This document shows, piece by piece, positions 13,286 to 28,404 of a stretch of 42,041 nt of DNA (its first letter is position 1; each line of letters opens with the position of its first letter). Under the pieces are notes generated by a model. It made no database searches and was not told the DNA's origin. It worked only from the letters and a program-made list of their open reading frames with translations. The position numbers and the translations under genes are program-made. The stretch is taken from contig DAICZV010000001.1 in NCBI GenBank assembly GCA_027310975.1, positions 1 through 42,041 on the forward strand. The letters run 5' to 3'. Origin of the DNA: a bacterium (lineage in GTDB: Bacteria > Patescibacteriota > Minisyncoccia > UBA6257 > GWB1-50-10).

Positions 13286-15040
13286 TCACTTCAGGCGCTT
13301 CTCTATTTTAGTGAGGTCGCTTTCAATCGCTTTTTCCGAACGGTCCAGGTCGTCCTTCATTTGCTTCAAAAGAATGTCCTCTTCCCGCGTAAGCTCCCTC
13401 ACGGACCGGATTTTTTCCAGATAGCGGACGTGGTCCCGAATGTCGGTCTTGAGGGCTTTGAAGGCCCGCTCCACGTCGCGTTCCACTACCTGCGCCTCTT
13501 TAGCGATATCTTTCTTCAGAGCGCGCACTTTGCGCGTGCCGTACCAAATGGCCGCAACGGCGAGGATGAGTATGACGACGAGTGAAACGATGGCCGTGAT
13601 CAAACTGATGGTGTAAGTTCCGATGCCTAAGAATGTGCCCGGCGAAACCGCAACATCATACTTCTGAGTCGACGGGCTTTGGGCTCCCCGGCTGTCCTGG
13701 ACCGCGGCGTACATCTTATAAGCGCCCGGACTGATCGCTCCATCTCCGGTGACCGTGAAATTACCGCTCCCGTCGCTCACGCCGGTCCAGGTCTTGGGCA
13801 GCGTCCCCTGGCCTTCCAGATTTATGCTCACGGTCGCGTTCGGATAGGTGGTGCCCTTAACAACCAAAAAGTCTCCCTGGCGCAACGAGGTCGTGTAGCC
13901 GGTGATGGTCGGCGGATCTATCGGCGTCACCGTGAATGATGCAAGCGCGGTTTGATAATTGCTGGCCTGATCAAAGGCCTGGACCAAAATGTTGTGCGGG
14001 CCGCTCGTCTGAACCGGCAGTGAGTAGGGCCCGCTGGCCGCTTGGCCGGCTGAAACAGCGATGAGATTCTGGTCGTCCACCTTTATCTTATAGTCTGCGA
14101 TGCCGGAAGGAGTGTCGGTCGCGTTCAAAATCACGGCCGGTTGCGGATTCGTCGGATCGGGATTCGCCGCGAAGCGGATTTGGAAAGGGTCCGGCGGCGT
14201 CGTGTCTATCTGGAACCTGAAGTGGGCAGTGCTTCCCCAACCGCTCGCATCGTGGAACTGGGCGTGGAAGTACCAAATGCCGTCCCCAAGACCCGTCAGT
14301 TCCTTCTCGCCCATCGGCGGTTCGTAAAGCACGGTGGGTGTGGAATTTTGGTACTTGTTGTAAAGCAGGCGCACGGCGTCAATGTCTGAGGGCACTTCCC
14401 AATTAAGCTTAATGTCATTGGACGGATACCACTTGTTTTGGTCGGGTACGTTCGGCGACGAGATGACCGGCGCGGACGGCCCGCTCGTTCCGCTCGGCGT
14501 TGAAGCCGTCGCGTTGCTCGCGGCTCCGGCCGGGACGTTCACGGCATATTGGTTGGCAGGCAGGCCCTGGGCATCCAGGACGTTGGTGCCCTGGCCGTCG
14601 TTCGCCAGAATGGAACCGGAGGTGAAGGAAACCAGGGCAATGCCCGGAGAGATTGCCCGGAAATAAACGGTAATGACATTACCGTTGGAACCGGTGAACC
14701 CCGGATTCAGAATCACGCCCTGGAAATTTATCGTGCCTGCGCTATTGGAATAGCTCGGGTCTTGGACCCATAGGCTCACCACGGAGCTGCTTTTGGAGAC
14801 CGAAGAGACCGCCAGTTTATCGTTGGGGAAAGAGATAACGCCGGAAACGGCATTCACGGCCTGGCCCGCGTTCACGTAGACCGTTACCGGAATGGCATCT
14901 CCCACGCTGTACGAACCGGTCTGGCTGGAAAACGAAAAGGTCGCCCCCGCCGCCCGGGCCGCGGGCAAGCACAGAAAAAGCGCCGCGGCGGCGAGTGCCG
15001 GCCAAAAACGGGTTACCTTCCTTTCTTTCTGATGAGCCAT
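13286..15040 (-). CDS. Membrane-anchored cohesin-domain surface protein with Ig-like repeats and a cytoplasmic coiled-coil tail
   Basis: Signal peptide, then a cohesin-like module (ATFSFSSQTGSYSVGDAIPVTVYVNAGQAVNAVSGVISFP...). Next come beta-rich repeats, a C-terminal TM helix (ISLITAIVSLVVILILAVAAIWY) and a charged helical tail. Start chosen at MAHQKERK (15040), because the longer ORF overlaps the upstream gene. Confidence 0.6.
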   Translation of the reverse strand: MAHQKERKVTRFWPALAAAALFLCLPAARAAGATFSFSSQTGSYSVGDAIPVTVYVNAGQAVNAVSGVISFPNDKLAVSSVSKSSSVVSLWVQDPSYSNSAGTINFQGVILNPGFTGSNGNVITVYFRAISPGIALVSFTSGSILANDGQGTNVLDAQGLPANQYAVNVPAGAASNATASTPSGTSGPSAPVISSPNVPDQNKWYPSNDIKLNWEVPSDIDAVRLLYNKYQNSTPTVLYEPPMGEKELTGLGDGIWYFHAQFHDASGWGSTAHFRFQIDTTPPDPFQIRFAANPDPTNPQPAVILNATDTPSGIADYKIKVDDQNLIAVSAGQAASGPYSLPVQTSGPHNILVQAFDQASNYQTALASFTVTPIDPPTITGYTTSLRQGDFLVVKGTTYPNATVSINLEGQGTLPKTWTGVSDGSGNFTVTGDGAISPGAYKMYAAVQDSRGAQSPSTQKYDVAVSPGTFLGIGTYTISLITAIVSLVVILILAVAAIWYGTRKVRALKKDIAKEAQVVERDVERAFKALKTDIRDHVRYLEKIRSVRELTREEDILLKQMKDDLDRSEKAIESDLTKIEKRLK

Positions 15041-15918
15041 AAGGCCAAACCTCCTATCGCTATAATGATAGCAGATAAGCAGATGATATTCGGCCAAAGA
15101 GCCGCCGTGTTCTCCGGCGCGAGAACAGCCACCCGGGCATTGCCGGCAAAATCCATCGCTCTCACGTAAACGTAGCTCATGAGCGATTGATCGTTTAGAA
15201 CGTAAGGGCTTGTCGCCGGGCGCCAATCCGTTTCCGGTATATTATCCATCTGCGTCTTTGATTCAAAAATATCGTAGGCGGCGACGCCGGTGCCCTTATC
15301 CTGTGTGCTCCAAACCGCGAACCATTTTCCGTTCTCAATGCTCGGATCGCGGCCGAGCGAGATGTTGAACGGTTCGGGAAGATTTTTATCCGCCGCGACG
15401 ATGTTCGCCGATGATGCGGCGGCCCGGTCCGGCTGTCCAATCGTGATGTTCAGGGCGTGCGTAGACAAAACGGCCGGAGTTCCCTGGCCGTCGCCTAGAA
15501 GGACGGCCGCGTGCGCGAAGCCGATTCGGACTGTGCCGGTTTGGAGCGGCTTGAAGACGGCGGAAAATATCCGGCCCGGCGTCAGGTCCGTCTCGTTCGC
15601 TCCCAAAATGCCGCCGAATCCTCCGGGAGCGATGCCGCTCCAAGCAATCGTGCCGCTCGCGGTTTGCCGCGGTCCAATCATCCACAAACTGATCACGGAA
15701 TCGGTTTCGTAGACGTTTTGAAGCTCCAATTCATCGGCTGGGAAGCTCAGGCTCCCGTCCGTGGCGTTGATGTTTTGACCCTGGGGGTCAAGCACGACGC
15801 TTACGGTAAACGGTATGCCTTGGGAAACGGTCAGGTTGGGCGTTACCAAGTTCAATGAGGCGGCGTGTGCGCTGAGAGCCAGAGAGAAAAGGACCGTTAT
15901 TAAAAGATATTGTTTCAT
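15013..15918 (-). CDS. Membrane-anchored cohesin-domain surface protein (301 aa)
   Basis: Signal peptide, a cohesin-like module (ASLNLVTPNLTVSQGIPFTVSVVLDPQGQNINATDGSLSFP...) and a C-terminal TM anchor (IICLSAIIIAIGGLALWLI). Confidence 0.6.
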   Translation of the reverse strand: MKQYLLITVLFSLALSAHAASLNLVTPNLTVSQGIPFTVSVVLDPQGQNINATDGSLSFPADELELQNVYETDSVISLWMIGPRQTASGTIAWSGIAPGGFGGILGANETDLTPGRIFSAVFKPLQTGTVRIGFAHAAVLLGDGQGTPAVLSTHALNITIGQPDRAAASSANIVAADKNLPEPFNISLGRDPSIENGKWFAVWSTQDKGTGVAAYDIFESKTQMDNIPETDWRPATSPYVLNDQSLMSYVYVRAMDFAGNARVAVLAPENTAALWPNIICLSAIIIAIGGLALWLIRKKGR

Positions 15919-26890: not shown

Positions 26891-28404
26891 TGGCTTGCGG
26901 TGAAGGAGATTTGGAACATTCCCGGGCGCGGTTGCCAGGAACCCCTGGTTCCTTGGTCGCCCACAATCAGATAATATGCCGCGCTCTTCAGTTCGGAAGG
27001 CAGGTCGTTATCGGAAATTGTGCGGCTGAACTCGCCGTTCTCGCACCGGAAGGCCTTGTTGAAAATAGCCGAAGAGGGGTCGGTGATGTAATCGTTCGGG
27101 TGCGTGAAGACAAGAATGGTGTAATAAGCGTTCATGCAGGTTCCTTCTATTTGGATGACGTTCTGGCCGACAAGCGTTACGGCTGGCAAGGCGTCGTTCG
27201 TAATACGGTCGGTTTGAATATTCCGTTCCGATGCCCAAGGCATTGGCCCGCTCAATATGTTCTGAATGGAATCAAGGGTGAAAGAATAACGGTGCGCAGG
27301 TGGGACGCTAAGAGTAGGCTGAATGGCTTGGTCTTGGGTGCCGGTGGCGATTTCCGGTTGGCCGTTTAAAGCGTTCGTGACGGCATCGGCAACATTGCTT
27401 ATGACGCCGCTCACCGCATCCGTTAGGTTCGCGGCTGCGTCCAGGGCGGCGTTCGCCCCGGATTTGAGCGTGTCCACGATGGACTGGTCATAGTCCACCT
27501 GGAGCCACATGCCATCCAATTGGACGGTCGGCATATCCACTGTCGGTAGCGGGTTCAGCTGAATTTGGATGTTATCAATGTCAGTCCACGAGCTGACGGG
27601 GATATTGAACGTTAGGTCCTGCCAATTATCCCGGCTCACTTCGCCCAAGGTCTGCCAATTTTGACCGTCCAGGGAGTAGCTCGCTTCTAAGAACCCCGGC
27701 GCGGGCGGGGTTTGGGCCGCGGCGCGATTCAAAAAGATTCCAGCGATGAAGTTGCCTACGCCGTCCAGGAAAGATGTCGTTGTCGCGGTCGTTGTGGCAT
27801 CTGGCGTGCCGGCGTCGGGTGTGCTAGATGTCGCCGTTGATGTCGTAAGGTCGGATGCGGTGGACGAAGCTTCAATTAATAAAACAGCGGACACATCCGA
27901 AGTGGTGGATGTGTCCGAAGTGGAAGAAACGGCTGCGGCTACGCCGGAGGCGTCCGCAGGAGCGGATGAGGTTGAATCGGATGACGATGAGGTTTGGTCT
28001 CCGAAGACTGGCGGCGAGGCATCGGTCGTTGATGAAGCGGTTGAACTGTTGATGACGGCATTCCAAGCTTGGCTGTCCGCATCCACGGAGATGGCCGCCG
28101 GCGGAGCGTTCGCTACGATATTCCAGGCAAAACTTAGAATGACCTTGGTCGGCGATTCGGACTGATCATTGGATTTGAAATAGCCGCAGAATATCTGAGC
28201 CGCGGTTTGGTTCAAGACCGCCGGATTGCCGTCCGGCTCCCCCGCCGCATTCCCCGGATTTTGCCAACCGCCCAGGCAGACGGTCGGGTAGGCATTCAAT
28301 GAAGCTGCTTGAGCCCGATTGAGCGAAACCTCTTTTTTGGCCGGCAAAAAAAGAAGCAGAAATAACGTCCCTATGGCGAACGCCCGCAAGAGCCCTCTTT
28401 TCAT
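26887..28404 (-). CDS. Secreted Ser/Thr-rich protein ending in the shared 2-Cys domain (first gene of TU1)
   Basis: Signal peptide and a long S/T/D/A low-complexity linker. The C-terminus reads CMNAYYTILVFTHPNDYITDPSSAIFNKAFRC...YYLIVGDQGTRGSWQP. Confidence 0.6.
   Translation of the reverse strand: MKRGLLRAFAIGTLFLLLFLPAKKEVSLNRAQAASLNAYPTVCLGGWQNPGNAAGEPDGNPAVLNQTAAQIFCGYFKSNDQSESPTKVILSFAWNIVANAPPAAISVDADSQAWNAVINSSTASSTTDASPPVFGDQTSSSSDSTSSAPADASGVAAAVSSTSDTSTTSDVSAVLLIEASSTASDLTTSTATSSTPDAGTPDATTTATTTSFLDGVGNFIAGIFLNRAAAQTPPAPGFLEASYSLDGQNWQTLGEVSRDNWQDLTFNIPVSSWTDIDNIQIQLNPLPTVDMPTVQLDGMWLQVDYDQSIVDTLKSGANAALDAAANLTDAVSGVISNVADAVTNALNGQPEIATGTQDQAIQPTLSVPPAHRYSFTLDSIQNILSGPMPWASERNIQTDRITNDALPAVTLVGQNVIQIEGTCMNAYYTILVFTHPNDYITDPSSAIFNKAFRCENGEFSRTISDNDLPSELKSAAYYLIVGDQGTRGSWQPRPGMFQISFTASQ

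What the first reader, a model, noticed from the sequence alone, without database searches (positions are those of the whole stretch)
13286..28404. 15-kb two-operon island for a composite cell-surface apparatus: cohesin/dockerin, WxL-like/CscA-like proteins and a dedicated glycan-modification operon
Fifteen minus-strand genes are packed with 1-6 nt gaps or ATGA overlaps. They form two units separated by a strong terminator (20581-20623) and a new TGTTATAAT promoter. TU1 (28404 to 20632) holds a Ser/Thr-rich secreted protein, a 210-aa unknown, a tail-fibre-like anchored protein, a GT-A protein, a beta-lactamase-fold hydrolase, a methyltransferase, a GT2 and a radical SAM enzyme. TU2 (20539 to 13286) holds a 2-Cys-domain protein, two WxL-like proteins, a CscA-like anchor, an FN3-dockerin protein and two cohesin proteins with C-terminal TM anchors. 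Both units open with a paralogous domain. This points to one functional system: anchored scaffolds (cohesins, CscA-like), cargo that docks on them (dockerin, WxL-like), and enzymes that glycosylate or modify the Ser/Thr-rich cargo or the wall. In an episymbiotic CPR cell such an apparatus would be a prime candidate for host attachment. I know of no described system that combines these modules.
Basis: inference. Interest (0 to 1): 0.8.

Follow-up and report, generated by a model that had tools for sequence, protein, structure and literature searches.

The report
Conserved CPR cell-surface display gene cluster
This 15-kb block from a tiny uncultivated (CPR/Patescibacteria) bacterium encodes a conserved set of membrane-anchored "sockets" and secreted "plugs", apparently undescribed in the literature I could search, that probably builds a protein complex on the cell surface; what that complex does is not shown.

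Summary
Fifteen co-directional genes, the 14-bp-stem terminator, the TGTTATAAT box and all three paralogue pairs are present.

Most domain calls hold:
- a DUF916/WxLIP-type anchor (g12)
- an Ig-dockerin protein (g13)
- two divergent cohesins with C-terminal TM helices (g14, g15)
- GT-A (g04), a beta-lactamase-fold hydrolase (g05), a methyltransferase (g06) and a radical SAM/SPASM enzyme (g08)

"Tail-fibre-like" (g03) is unsupported. The two "WxL-like" proteins share a new C-terminal domain that fails every WxL sequence test but copies the small/large WxL architecture.

Synteny is the main result. Thirteen of the 15 genes keep one order in at least 8 related genomes, where g06 abuts g09, so the two-operon split is local. 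GT2 and radical SAM occur only here and in the closest relative.

The core, a WxLIP-like anchor followed by a dockerin protein and cohesins, recurs across Patescibacteria. The next gene ends in a dockerin in 66 of 68 tested C-termini (67 loci plus the window). Cohesins occur in 47 of 55 loci with enough flank.

A search seeded from g02 recovers the same linkage, and in four loci type IV pilus genes.

I read it as a surface display or adhesion complex with two non-covalent anchoring principles. Host attachment is untested.

The parts
26887..28404 (-). g01: secreted 505-aa Ser/Thr-rich protein whose C-terminal ~80-aa domain has two invariant cysteines
   Evidence: N-terminal hydrophobic segment, 21% S+T. 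C-terminal domain paralogous to g09 (alignment A8). No Pfam, NCBIfam, PHROG or PDB match. Always directly upstream of g02.
26258..26890 (-). g02: 210-aa cytoplasmic protein of a family found only in CPR bacteria; function unknown
   Evidence: No TM segment. No Pfam, NCBIfam, PHROG or PDB profile hit. 75 homologues, all from CPR, none with a Pfam domain. Always next to g03.
24763..26253 (-). g03: 496-aa bitopic membrane protein with a conserved short cytoplasmic N-terminal peptide, one TM helix, a conserved extracellular half and a variable C-terminal half
   Evidence: TM at residues 24-42. Alignment A9. No PHROG or PDB hit, and only a sub-threshold Pfam BppL_N hit, so 'tail-fibre-like' is not supported.
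23949..24758 (-). g04: cytoplasmic GT-A-fold glycosyltransferase-like protein (EDD motif at residue 125, Cys-rich insert)
   Evidence: Family profile A4 hits PDB 2c0n (molecule A197) at E 1.7e-5. phrog_1574 at 3e-11. Motifs.
22967..23944 (-). g05: membrane-anchored extracytoplasmic beta-lactamase/PBP-fold serine hydrolase
   Evidence: Pfam Beta-lactamase2 at 2.6e-35. N-terminal TM helix. STIK, SDN and KIG motifs.
22448..22960 (-). g06: small (170-aa) cytoplasmic SAM-dependent methyltransferase, the most conserved protein of the cluster, always followed by g09
   Evidence: Methyltransf_11 at 3e-5. Homologues at E 1e-78 to 1e-83 in relatives. Adjacent to g09.
21711..22448 (-). g07: GT2-like glycosyltransferase (accessory, not conserved)
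   Evidence: Sub-threshold Pfam GT2 hits and a DDD motif. Present only in the window and L002.
20632..21639 (-). g08: radical SAM/SPASM enzyme (accessory, not conserved), with a promoter-like site at 21708-21681
   Evidence: Radical_SAM at 1.2e-17 and SPASM at 6.1e-8. CPLNCSFC motif. Below every NCBIfam equivalog cut-off. Present only in the window and L002. Promoter-like site.
20581..20622 (-). Intrinsic terminator after g08 (14-pair stem plus T run)
   Evidence: This split is local to the window; in relatives g06 abuts g09.
20552..20560 (-). Extended -10 box TGTTATAAT, 12 nt upstream of the g09 ATG
   Evidence: Read from the sequence. No -35 element was found by the scan. Function not shown.
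28417..28425 (-). Extended -10-like box TGCTAAAAT, 12 nt upstream of the g01 ATG; a terminator-like hairpin of the upstream SIMPL gene precedes it
   Evidence: Read from the sequence. Function not shown.
20042..20539 (-). g09: 165-aa N-terminally anchored protein carrying the same 2-Cys domain as g01
18735..20060 (-). g10: secreted 441-aa 'large' protein with a variable N-terminal part plus the family's C-terminal domain (CTD)
   Evidence: CTD 50% identical to g11. The N-terminal part alone recurs beside pilin genes in L084 and L085.
18014..18685 (-). g11: secreted 223-aa 'small' protein made almost only of the CTD, a new beta-sandwich domain family
   Evidence: AF2 model with pLDDT 81. 627 cluster representatives, with the domain at the C-terminus in the listed matches. 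No WxL Pfam or PDB sequence hit. Weak fold matches to TasA and Pap/Fim pilin domains.
17081..17986 (-). g12: WxLIP/CscA-like anchor with a signal peptide, two beta-sandwich domains and a C-terminal TM helix
   Evidence: Pfam WxLIP_PGBD at 32.6 bits against a cut-off of 27.3. AF2 pLDDT 85. Foldseek matches E. faecium WxLIP (9i25_C at 1e-9, 9i1y at 1.5e-9) and PapD-like chaperones.
15924..17078 (-). g13: secreted protein with FN3, two Ig-like domains and a C-terminal dockerin
   Evidence: fn3 at 2.3e-9, Dockerin_1 at 9.3e-8, Big_6. The Ig-Ig-dockerin part is conserved across CPR. 66 of 68 C-termini (67 loci plus the window) hit Dockerin_1.
15013..15918 (-). g14: 301-aa protein with a signal peptide, a divergent cohesin domain, a second domain and a C-terminal TM anchor
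   Evidence: Family profile A3 hits cellulosomal cohesins in the PDB (5g5d at 8.9e-5). 18 of 30 family members hit Pfam Cohesin. TM at residues 278-296.
13286..15040 (-). g15: 584-aa protein with a divergent cohesin domain, Ig-like domains, a TM helix and an ~85-aa cytoplasmic coiled-coil-like tail

Best explanation
The island encodes a Patescibacteria-specific cell-surface complex that holds secreted proteins on the membrane by two non-covalent anchoring principles.

(1) Cohesin-dockerin anchoring. g14 and g15 are Sec-exported proteins with a C-terminal TM anchor and an outward-facing divergent cohesin. They would capture the C-terminal dockerin of the secreted Ig/FN3 protein g13.

(2) WxLIP-type anchoring. 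g12 is a membrane-anchored two-domain protein of the WxLIP/CscA type, whose fold also matches PapD-like pilus chaperones. It would hold the shared C-terminal domain of the small protein g11 and the large protein g10. The likely mode is beta-strand complementation, as proposed for the E. faecium WxLIP-WxL pair. The variable N-terminal part of the large protein would be the displayed, probably adhesive, cargo.

(3) An upstream installation module. The conserved genes g01-g06 and g09 would install or modify this complex. They are two 2-Cys-domain envelope proteins (g01, g09), a cytoplasmic protein (g02) paired with a bitopic membrane protein (g03), a wall-side PBP-fold hydrolase (g05), a cytoplasmic GT-A glycosyltransferase (g04) and a methyltransferase (g06). 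A variable slot in this genome also holds a GT2 and a radical SAM enzyme.

Shown here: the gene set, the domain and fold assignments, the membrane topology signals and the gene linkage across genomes. Inferred: all physical contacts, the strand-complementation mode, the enzyme substrates and any adhesive role.
For: Domains and folds:
- g12: PF06030 above its cut-off; two beta-sandwich domains plus a TM helix at pLDDT 85; Foldseek E 1e-9 to 'WxLIP from E. faecium locus A bound to long WxL' (9i25) and about 1e-8 to CfaA, FimC, Caf1M and CsuC chaperones.
- g10/g11: a shared C-terminal domain. The domain family has 627 cluster representatives, and in the listed matches it lies at the C-terminus of proteins of 200-2480 aa or stands alone. 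This is the small/large layout described for WxL/Csc clusters (PMC1534035, PMC10599100).
- Dockerin: and 66 of 68 neighbour C-termini.
- Cohesin: the family profile hits cellulosomal cohesins in the PDB, and 18 of 30 members hit PF00963.
- Topology: signal peptides and C-terminal TM anchors.

Linkage:
- Order g01-g02-g03-g04-(g05)-g06-g09-g10-g11-g12-g13-g14-g15 in L002-L005, L008, L009, L011 and L012.
- Among 55 g12-seeded loci with enough flank, the CTD is present in 45 and cohesin in 47.
- The g02-seeded metagenome scan and look-ups again give the first-unit core followed by dockerin, cohesin or WxLIP genes in L087, L088, L090, L091, L093, L096, L097, L100 and L102.

Enzymes: the GT-A profile hits 2c0n; g05 has SxxK, SDN and KxG motifs.
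Against: - No complex was modelled or measured.
- g14 and g15 themselves do not reach Pfam Cohesin; the assignment is at family level.
- The g11 domain is not detectably a WxL domain by sequence. Its model did not list the WxL chain of 9i25 among the top 50 PDB fold matches. Binding to g12 therefore rests on gene linkage and analogy.
- Seven large CTD-bearing proteins showed no adhesin or enzyme domain, only one fn3, so the cargo function is unknown.
- The related DUF916/WxL-like cluster of Southlakia epibionticum is non-essential in co-culture Tn-seq.
- The locus sample was seeded on g12 or g02, so the co-occurrence figures are conditional on those genes.
Confidence: 0.6

Rival explanations
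1. The cluster is a type IV pilus accessory or adhesin module. The g01-g06/g09/g10 module would serve pilus assembly or provide pilus-associated adhesins, and the cohesin/WxLIP cassette would be a second docking site for the same adhesins.
For: - L085: the order is pilins, PilB, PilC, GspH-like, g02, g03, g04, g05, g06, g09, a 151-aa protein, a g10 N-domain protein without the CTD, then a pilin with G|FSLLE.
- L084 and L086: g02 and g03 lie beside PilC and pilin genes.
- L088: T2SSE and T2SSF lie 8 kb upstream of the full cluster on the same strand.
- The window has a pilin-like gene at 32425-33081.
- g02 (cytoplasmic) followed by g03 (bitopic, conserved N-terminal peptide) recalls the PilM-PilN logic. 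This is inference.
Against: - Only 1 of 80 g12-seeded loci has a PilB-like gene within 10 kb, and none has a canonical prepilin motif.
- No island protein has a prepilin leader.
- Close relatives such as L087 have no pilus genes nearby.
- g02 does not hit PilM models.
Confidence: 0.15
2. The cluster is a surface-layer or surface-glycoprotein locus. The Ser/Thr-rich secreted proteins (g01, g10, g11, g13) would be structural envelope glycoproteins, O-glycosylated and methylated by g04, g06, g07 and g08, as in S-layer glycosylation (slg) or serine-rich-repeat adhesin loci. The anchors would simply tether this layer.
For: - 21-28% Ser+Thr in g01, g03, g10, g11 and g13.
- A conserved cytoplasmic GT-A and methyltransferase.
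- A variable enzyme slot holding an extra methyltransferase, or a GT2 plus radical SAM. This resembles strain-variable glycosylation islands (my own knowledge).
Against: - No flippase, oligosaccharyltransferase, polyprenyl-phosphate transferase or sugar-nucleotide synthesis gene in the island.
- No S-layer or SLH domain hit.
- Nothing bears on abundance or lattice formation.
Confidence: 0.12
3. The cluster is a carbohydrate-capture machine of the Csc or cellulosome type. The complex would display sugar-binding or degrading modules for nutrient acquisition.
For: Csc clusters were proposed to serve plant polysaccharide use (PMC1534035). Cohesin-dockerin pairs classically assemble cellulosomes.
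Against: - No glycoside hydrolase, lectin or CBM hit in any of the 15 proteins, nor in 7 large CTD proteins.
- Only one dockerin-bearing protein per locus, and it has no catalytic module.
Confidence: 0.06
4. The genes are a chance neighbourhood or a prophage remnant with no joint function.
For: g04 and g06 have weak PHROG hits. G+C is lower over 21-25 kb.
Against: - Co-linearity across many genomes in two independently seeded searches.
- Housekeeping genes flank the island (gyrB, sodN, SIMPL, tRNA) and no integrase was found among the ORFs scanned.
- No PHROG hits for g01-g03 or g09.
Confidence: 0.03

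Closest known systems
WxL / Csc cell-surface clusters of Firmicutes (CscA/WxLIP + CscB small WxL + CscC large WxL + CscD; Siezen 2006 PMC1534035; Hassan 2023 PMC10599100; PDB 9i25, 9i1y)
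   Same: - A DUF916 protein with two Ig-like domains and a C-terminal TM helix.
- Beside it, one small protein that is almost only a ~170-aa domain, and one large protein with the same domain at its C-terminus and a variable N-terminus.
- All have Sec signal peptides.
   Different: - The C-terminal domain is not a Pfam WxL domain. g11 has only one W-x-L and g10 has none.
- No CscD/LPxTG protein.
- No Pfam DUF3324 hit for the second domain.
- The cluster is fused to a dockerin protein, TM-anchored cohesins and an upstream enzyme and envelope module, none of which is part of the Csc/WxL cluster definitions I read.
- The host lineage is Patescibacteria.
Cohesin-dockerin systems (cellulosomal and non-cellulosomal)
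   Same: A canonical two-loop dockerin at the C-terminus of a secreted protein. Cohesin-family modules on cell-bound proteins encoded next to it.
   Different: - The cohesins are very divergent and are anchored by a C-terminal TM helix rather than by SLH or sortase.
- There is a single dockerin partner with only Ig/FN3 domains and no enzymes.
- The pair is genetically coupled to a WxLIP-like anchor.
Chaperone-usher pilus chaperones and subunits (PapD/FimC/Caf1M/CsuC with pilins) and TasA-type donor-strand fibres
   Same: The g12 model matches these chaperones at Foldseek E about 1e-8. The g11 model's best, weak matches are the TasA fibre and Pap/Fim pilin domains. This suggests a strand-complementation type of contact.
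   Different: There is no usher and no outer membrane. g12 is membrane-tethered, so it would act as an anchor rather than a recycling chaperone. The similarity is in fold only, at 9-18% identity.
Southlakia epibionticum SEML1_0623-0628 (Saccharibacteria; Wang et al. 2023, PMC10633639)
   Same: A CPR cluster with a DUF916-like two-Ig protein, a neighbour whose best fold hit is a 'WxL domain-containing protein', a giant upstream protein and an FN3 protein.
   Different: No cohesin or dockerin is annotated there, and no g01-g09 module. All six genes were called non-essential, and disruption of SEML1_0625 gave a growth advantage, in Tn-seq on the host.
Glycosylation islands next to surface proteins (S-layer slg clusters, serine-rich-repeat adhesin loci); comparison from my own knowledge
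   Same: Ser/Thr-rich secreted proteins are encoded with cytoplasmic glycosyltransferase and methyltransferase genes and a strain-variable enzyme complement.
   Different: No transport, flippase or accessory Sec genes. No evidence that any protein is glycosylated.

Membership tests
WxL cluster (Hassan et al. [quoted passage not shown] | WxLIP peptidoglycan-binding domain (DUF916, PF06030) | tested here: met
   g12 scores 32.6 bits against a cut-off of 27.3, E 9e-8. Foldseek to 9i25_C and 9i1y at E 1e-9. The sequence profile against EfmWxLIP1 is only E 0.12.
WxL cluster | Second Ig-like domain (DUF3324/HBD) following DUF916 | tested here: inconclusive
   The model shows a second beta-sandwich at residues ~165-267, and the whole-chain fold match to WxLIP covers ~260 columns. 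There is no Pfam DUF3324 hit at E<=0.1.
WxL cluster | C-terminal transmembrane helix on the WxLIP | tested here: met
   Hydrophobic segment at 272-290. Helix at 270-293 in the model.
WxL cluster | Two adjacent proteins with a WxL domain (PF13731, two W-x-L motifs) | tested here: not met
   No PF13731 hit for g10 or g11, for 52 neighbour ORFs or for 63 family members. The family profile finds no WxL chain in PDB sequences. g11 has one WxL motif and g10 has none.
WxL cluster | Small protein that is almost only the domain, plus a large protein with a variable N-terminus and the same domain at its C-terminus, next to the anchor | tested here: met
   This is met for the new CTD family, not for WxL proper.
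Csc cluster (Siezen et al. 2006) | CscD: very small LPxTG-anchored protein | tested here: not met
   No LPxTG motif in any of the 15 proteins.
Cohesin-dockerin pair | Dockerin with duplicated Ca-binding loop-helix (PF00404) | tested here: met
   g13 residues 332-378, E 9.3e-8, 32.6 bits against 22.9. Loops DVNGDGRVNIVD and DLNSDGMVSLTD. 66 of 68 C-termini (67 loci plus the window) hit Dockerin_1.
Cohesin-dockerin pair | Cohesin module (PF00963) | tested here: inconclusive
   g14 and g15 give no Pfam hit. However, 18 of 30 homologous domains do (best 5.8e-10), and the family profile hits mostly cellulosomal cohesin and scaffoldin chains in the PDB (best 8.9e-5).
Cohesin-dockerin pair | Physical Ca-dependent binding between the two modules | not testable with these tools
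   No multimer prediction or experiment was available.
Cellulosome | Several dockerin-bearing carbohydrate-active enzymes | tested here: not met
   There is one dockerin protein with only FN3 and Ig domains. No CAZyme domain in the island.
Chaperone-usher pilus system | PapD-like two-domain chaperone fold | tested here: met
   Foldseek E about 1e-8, TM (target) 0.45-0.56 to CfaA, DraB, FimC, Caf1M, CsuC and SafB.
Chaperone-usher pilus system | Outer-membrane usher | tested here: not met
   No usher-like hit among the 15 proteins. Patescibacteria are described as monoderm (PMC11665869).
Type IV pilus locus | Prepilin leader (G|F..LE) on island proteins; PilB/PilC in the island | tested here: not met
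   No N_methyl hit in g01-g15. A pilin-like gene lies outside the island at 32425-33081. PilB and PilC are found only beside homologous modules in L084, L085 and L088.
GT-A glycosyltransferase | GT-A fold with an acidic DxD-type motif | tested here: met
   g04 family profile against 2c0n at E 1.7e-5. The acidic motif (EDD in the window's g04, residue 125; EED in most homologues) keeps its first and third acidic residues (E125, D127) invariant. That A197 is a GT-A glycosyltransferase is from my own knowledge.
Radical SAM / SPASM | CxxxCxxC cluster motif plus a C-terminal SPASM Cys-rich domain | tested here: met
   g08: PF04055 at 1.2e-17 and PF13186 at 6.1e-8. CPLNCSFC at residue 46. No NCBIfam equivalog reached, so the substrate is unknown.

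The most novel reading that the evidence does not exclude
Patescibacteria carry a phylum-wide, previously unrecognised envelope apparatus. In it, a membrane-tethered chaperone-fold protein (WxLIP/PapD-like) and TM-anchored cohesins together mount interchangeable giant adhesins. These adhesins are marked by a new C-terminal 'address' domain. In some lineages the apparatus is genetically coupled to type IV pili, and it could be a main determinant of episymbiont-host contact and host range.
Probability: 0.25. Interest if true: 0.85.

Novelty: new variant of a known kind. Interest (0 to 1): 0.66.

Why it matters
CPR/Patescibacteria make up a large share of bacterial diversity and appear to live attached to other cells. 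Apart from type IV pili, very little is known about the molecules on their surface.

This cluster joins two well-understood protein-docking principles, the WxLIP-type anchor and the cohesin-dockerin pair, in one conserved cassette. The scan found relatives of the g12 anchor in 367 stretches of species-representative genomes. The titles of the 80 loci fetched span many named CPR lineages.

The cassette also defines a new C-terminal domain carried by proteins of up to about 2,500 residues. That yields concrete, testable candidates for the surface display machinery and for variable adhesins: which protein docks on which, and what the giant cargo binds. It could also supply surface antigens for antibody-based capture of uncultivated CPR cells together with their hosts.

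It would also extend WxLIP-type anchoring beyond Firmicutes, and cohesin-dockerin beyond polysaccharide degradation.

Tried and rejected
1. 'Tail-fibre-like' g03. PHROGs gave no hit. Pfam gave only a 13.9-bit BppL_N hit. The family profile found nothing in the PDB. The label is dropped.

2. Direct WxL membership of g10 and g11. I tried Pfam on the proteins, on 52 neighbour ORFs and on 63 family members; NCBIfam; phmmer and a family profile against PDB sequences, which include the E. faecium 'long WxL' complex 9i25; and Foldseek of the g11 model. All were negative or weak. Four of 63 members gave weak DUF4402 hits, which I did not pursue.

3. Fetching bona fide WxL neighbours through plasmid records. 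tblastn with g12 found DUF916 proteins in Actinobacteria and Deinococcus, but no annotated WxL proteins next to them. This was a dead end for a profile-profile test.

4. Function of g02, the 2-Cys domain and g01. PDB profile searches, Pfam, NCBIfam and PHROGs gave nothing.

5. A link to the essential dockerin protein SEML1_0315 of Southlakia. It is a stand-alone gene outside any such cassette.

6. My first dockerin regular expression was too strict: 15 of 55 loci. I replaced it with a Pfam scan: 66 of 68.

7. Prophage origin. Rejected on flanks, synteny and the lack of phage hits.

8. Cargo function. Seven large CTD-bearing proteins show no Pfam domain except one fn3.

Full report
**What is in the window.**
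The stretch 13286-28404 holds 15 ORFs on the minus strand. I call them g01 to g15 in the order of transcription.

The flanks are housekeeping genes. gyrB and a Ni-superoxide dismutase gene lie downstream. A SIMPL-family gene, tRNA-Leu and a pseudouridine synthase gene lie upstream. Cell-division genes, ribosomal protein genes and secY lie elsewhere in the window. This is chromosomal DNA. Homologues place it in Paceibacterota/Parcubacteria, within the CPR.

The terminator after g08 is a 14-pair stem at 20622-20589 followed by a T run. TGTTATAAT lies at 20560-20552, 12 nt before the g09 ATG. A similar TGCTAAAAT lies 12 nt before the g01 ATG.

Ten of the 14 junctions are overlaps or gaps of at most 6 nt. 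The other four are 27, 49, 71 and 92 nt.

**Domain assignments.**
Confirmed directly:
- g05: Beta-lactamase2 at 2.6e-35, with STIK, SDN and KIG motifs and an N-terminal TM helix.
- g06: methyltransferase.
- g08: radical SAM plus SPASM, with CPLNCSFC. It falls below every NCBIfam equivalog cut-off, so its substrate is unknown.
- g12: WxLIP_PGBD (DUF916) above the gathering score, with a C-terminal TM helix.
- g13: fn3, Big_6 and Dockerin_1, with two canonical Ca-binding loops.

Confirmed at family level:
- g04: a profile of nine homologues hits PDB 2c0n (A197) at 1.7e-5. I know A197 as the GT-A glycosyltransferase of the virus STIV.
- g14 and g15: they give no Pfam hit themselves. A profile of 30 homologous N-terminal domains hits mostly cellulosomal cohesin and scaffoldin chains in the PDB (best 8.9e-5). 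Eighteen of the 30 domains reach Pfam Cohesin on their own (best 5.8e-10).

Weak: g07, whose GT2 hits are sub-threshold.

Not supported: 'tail-fibre-like' for g03.

Unknown: g02, and the 2-Cys domain shared by g01 and g09.

**The 'WxL-like' pair.**
g10 (441 aa) and g11 (223 aa) share a C-terminal domain of about 170 residues. A profile of this domain found 627 cluster representatives in a library of 1.84 billion proteins. In the listed matches the domain ends within a few residues of the C-terminus. The proteins are either about 200-240 aa, or up to 2480 aa with variable N-terminal parts.

That is the layout described for CscB/small WxL and CscC/large WxL proteins next to CscA/WxLIP (PMC1534035; PMC10599100).

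The domain nevertheless fails every WxL test I could run:
- No PF13731 hit in g10, g11, 52 neighbour ORFs or 63 family members.
- No hit of the family profile in PDB sequences, which now include an E. faecium WxLIP-long WxL complex.
- One W-x-L motif in g11 and none in g10.

The AF2 model of g11 (pLDDT 81) is a beta-sandwich. Its best PDB fold matches are weak: the TasA fibre at E 7e-3, and the pilin domain of the PapG adhesin, FimG and SafA.

I therefore treat it as a new C-terminal 'address' domain (CTD) that plays the architectural role of WxL. Whether it is a very divergent WxL domain stays open.

**The anchor.**
The AF2 model of g12 (pLDDT 85) has two beta-sandwich domains and a C-terminal helix. 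Foldseek places it next to 'WxLIP from Enterococcus faecium locus A bound to long WxL' (9i25_C, E 1e-9) and 9i1y. It also matches the PapD-like chaperones CfaA, DraB, FimC, Caf1M, CsuC and SafB at about 1e-8.

Hassan et al. predicted that a DUF916 hairpin inserts into the WxL domain. Together with the pilin-like flavour of the g11 matches, this suggests a strand-complementation contact between g12 and the CTD. That contact is inferred, not shown.

**Conservation, seeded on g12.**
A scan of one genome per GTDB species with a g12 alignment found 367 stretches encoding a relative. Eighty loci with 10-kb flanks were fetched. By their titles nearly all are CPR: Paceibacterota, Minisyncoccia, Jorgensen-, Magasanik-, Uhr-, Nealson-, Veblen-, Beckwith- and Berkelbacteria, Saccharibacteria, CPR2 and WWE3.

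I searched the ORFs of these loci with the window proteins:
- The order g01-g02-g03-g04-(g05)-g06-g09-g10-g11-g12-g13-g14-g15 is kept on one strand in L002-L005, L008, L009, L011 and L012, where g12 is 56-74% identical. L006 keeps it with frameshifts.
- g07 and g08 occur only in L002, the closest relative. There they lie before g06.
- Elsewhere g06 is followed at once by g09. In L087 the called genes overlap (13132-13641 and 13638-14153). The terminator/promoter split is therefore a local consequence of the g07-g08 insertion, and the ancestral state is one operon.
- The same slot holds an extra methyltransferase in L002 and L008.

**The deep core.**
The part of g13 that is conserved across CPR is residues ~130-384, that is two Ig-like domains plus the dockerin. 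Of 68 C-termini taken from the gene just downstream of the g12-like gene (67 loci plus the window), 66 hit Pfam Dockerin_1.

With iterated profiles, among the 55 loci that have at least 2 kb upstream and 4 kb downstream, 45 have the CTD and 47 have cohesin ORFs, up to five per locus.

Many distant loci read: giant CTD protein, WxLIP-like 1, small or medium CTD protein, WxLIP-like 2, Ig-Ig-dockerin, then cohesin x 1-5.

Iterated profiles can drift. Here the E-values are 1e-20 to 1e-40, and in the full-length hits the domain is almost always C-terminal.

**Reciprocal test, seeded on g02.**
g02 belongs to a CPR-only family with no Pfam domain. Look-ups of homologues and a metagenome scan gave about a dozen independent long loci.

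In L087, L088/L104, L090, L091, L093 and L097 the g01-g06/g09 module is followed by CTD, WxLIP, dockerin or cohesin genes. In L096 and L100 it is followed directly by a dockerin protein, with a cohesin-like ORF next to it. In L102 cohesin and WxLIP genes lie nearby. The linkage between the two 'units' therefore does not depend on the seed.

- In L085/L101 the module lies inside a type IV pilus locus: pilins, PilB, PilC, GspH-like, then g02-g09, then a g10 N-domain protein without the CTD, then a pilin with G|FSLLE.
- L084 and L086 also have PilC and pilin genes beside g02 and g03.
- L088 has T2SSE and T2SSF upstream of the whole cluster on the same strand.

Against a general pilus link, only 1 of the 80 g12-seeded loci has a PilB-like gene within 10 kb.

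**How it most likely works.**
Shown:
- Ten of the 15 proteins have an N-terminal hydrophobic segment: a signal peptide or an N-terminal anchor.
- g12, g14 and g15 also have a C-terminal TM helix.
- g02, g04, g06, g07 and g08 have none of these.

Inferred:
- g14 and g15 present cohesins at the membrane surface and bind the g13 dockerin.
- g12 binds the CTDs of g10 and g11.
- The variable N-terminal parts of the large CTD proteins are the displayed function.
- g05, a PBP-fold hydrolase on the wall side, may remodel peptidoglycan locally.
- g04, g06 and the variable enzymes may modify the Ser/Thr-rich proteins or a wall polymer.
- g02 may dock on the conserved cytoplasmic N-terminal peptide of g03 (alignment A9).

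Seven large CTD proteins showed no enzyme or lectin domain. This argues against a cellulosome- or Csc-like nutritional role and leaves adhesion or structure as the default.

**Limits on the host-attachment idea.**
In Southlakia epibionticum, the only CPR bacterium with Tn-seq data, there is a cluster of this general kind. It has a DUF916-like protein (SEML1_0626), a neighbour whose best fold hit is a WxL-domain protein (0627), a giant upstream protein (0628), and FN3 and Ig proteins.

All of its genes are called non-essential, and disruption of 0625 gives a growth advantage (PMC10633639 Tables S1 and S2). The essential dockerin protein of that organism, SEML1_0315, is a stand-alone gene.

That cluster lacks annotated cohesin or dockerin genes and comes from another class. 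It therefore weakens, but does not exclude, an attachment role here.

**Novelty.**
Searches of the held literature found no description of the cassette. The searches combined WxL, DUF916 or WxLIP with Patescibacteria, CPR or Saccharibacteria, and cohesin or dockerin with CPR. A 2024 perspective on Patescibacteria mentions none of these modules.

The parts are known kinds: the WxLIP anchor, the cohesin-dockerin pair, GT-A and radical SAM. What is new is their obligatory coupling, the new CTD family and the conserved upstream module. I therefore file it as a new variant of a known kind.

I score interest at 0.66. The finding gives testable handles on the CPR cell surface, but its function is inferred from architecture and synteny only.

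Noticed in passing
window 32425-33081 (-): A 218-aa ORF with a prepilin N-terminal methylation motif (Pfam N_methyl at 8.6e-8). It lies about 4 kb upstream of g01 and is separated from it by SIMPL, tRNA-Leu, a LAGLIDADG-like ORF and a pseudouridine synthase gene. It is of interest because homologues of g02-g10 lie inside type IV pilus loci in other Paceibacterota.
   Followed up: partly
window 12780-13289 (-): The start of the Ni-superoxide dismutase ORF (Sod_Ni at 3.4e-41) overlaps the g15 stop by 4 nt, and a promoter-like site lies at 13289-13260. The same adjacency is seen only in the closest relative, L002. The second transcription unit may read into sodN.
   Followed up: partly
window 33198-33467 (-): An adjacent tRNA-Ala(TGC) and tRNA-Ile(GAT) pair, the classic rRNA-spacer pair. 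No rRNA was detected anywhere in the window.
   Followed up: no
window 29923-30585 (-), next to tRNA-Leu 29835-29918: A 220-aa ORF with a weak LAGLIDADG_3 hit (1.3e-7) directly upstream of a tRNA-Leu gene. A 200-aa ORF at 29278-29880 overlaps the tRNA.
   Followed up: no
window 21000-25000: G+C drops to 0.48-0.50 over the cytoplasmic enzyme genes g04-g08, against 0.56-0.61 over the surface-protein genes. This fits g07 and g08 being recent insertions, but it also covers the conserved g04-g06.
   Followed up: no
window 20042-20060 (g09/g10 overlap); L003:6715-7152, L004:7428-7868, L087:14150-14590, L085:15221-15676: Most relatives have a conserved single-TM protein of about 147 aa between g09 and g10, with no Pfam hit. 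It is missing in the window, in L011 and in L012, where g09 and g10 overlap.
   Followed up: partly
window 13286-13540 (C-terminal ~85 aa of g15): After its TM helix, g15 has a charged, coiled-coil-like cytoplasmic tail (KKDIAKEAQVVERDVERAFKALK...). A surface cohesin protein may thus be coupled to something inside the cell.
   Followed up: no
L085:15685-16857 and L084:1831-3030: In two pilus-linked loci, homologues of the g10 N-terminal domain occur without the C-terminal address domain, next to pilin genes. The same cargo domain may be mounted in different ways in different lineages.
   Followed up: partly
L005:4432-9243, L034:1-7983, L036:1-8130, L014/L016/L018 (opposite strand, >2700 aa): Giant ORFs of 1600-2750 aa lie next to the cassette in many loci. 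Several end in the CTD. Seven large CTD proteins from the representative library had no Pfam domain apart from one fn3.
   Followed up: partly
L015, L048, L062, L065, L071, L076, L078, L080, L081, L053 (record titles): Several loci that carry this CPR-type cassette come from MAGs titled 'uncultured Gammaproteobacteria', 'Pseudomonadales' or 'Dehalococcoidia'. These are probably mislabelled or contaminated bins. I did not check them.
   Followed up: no
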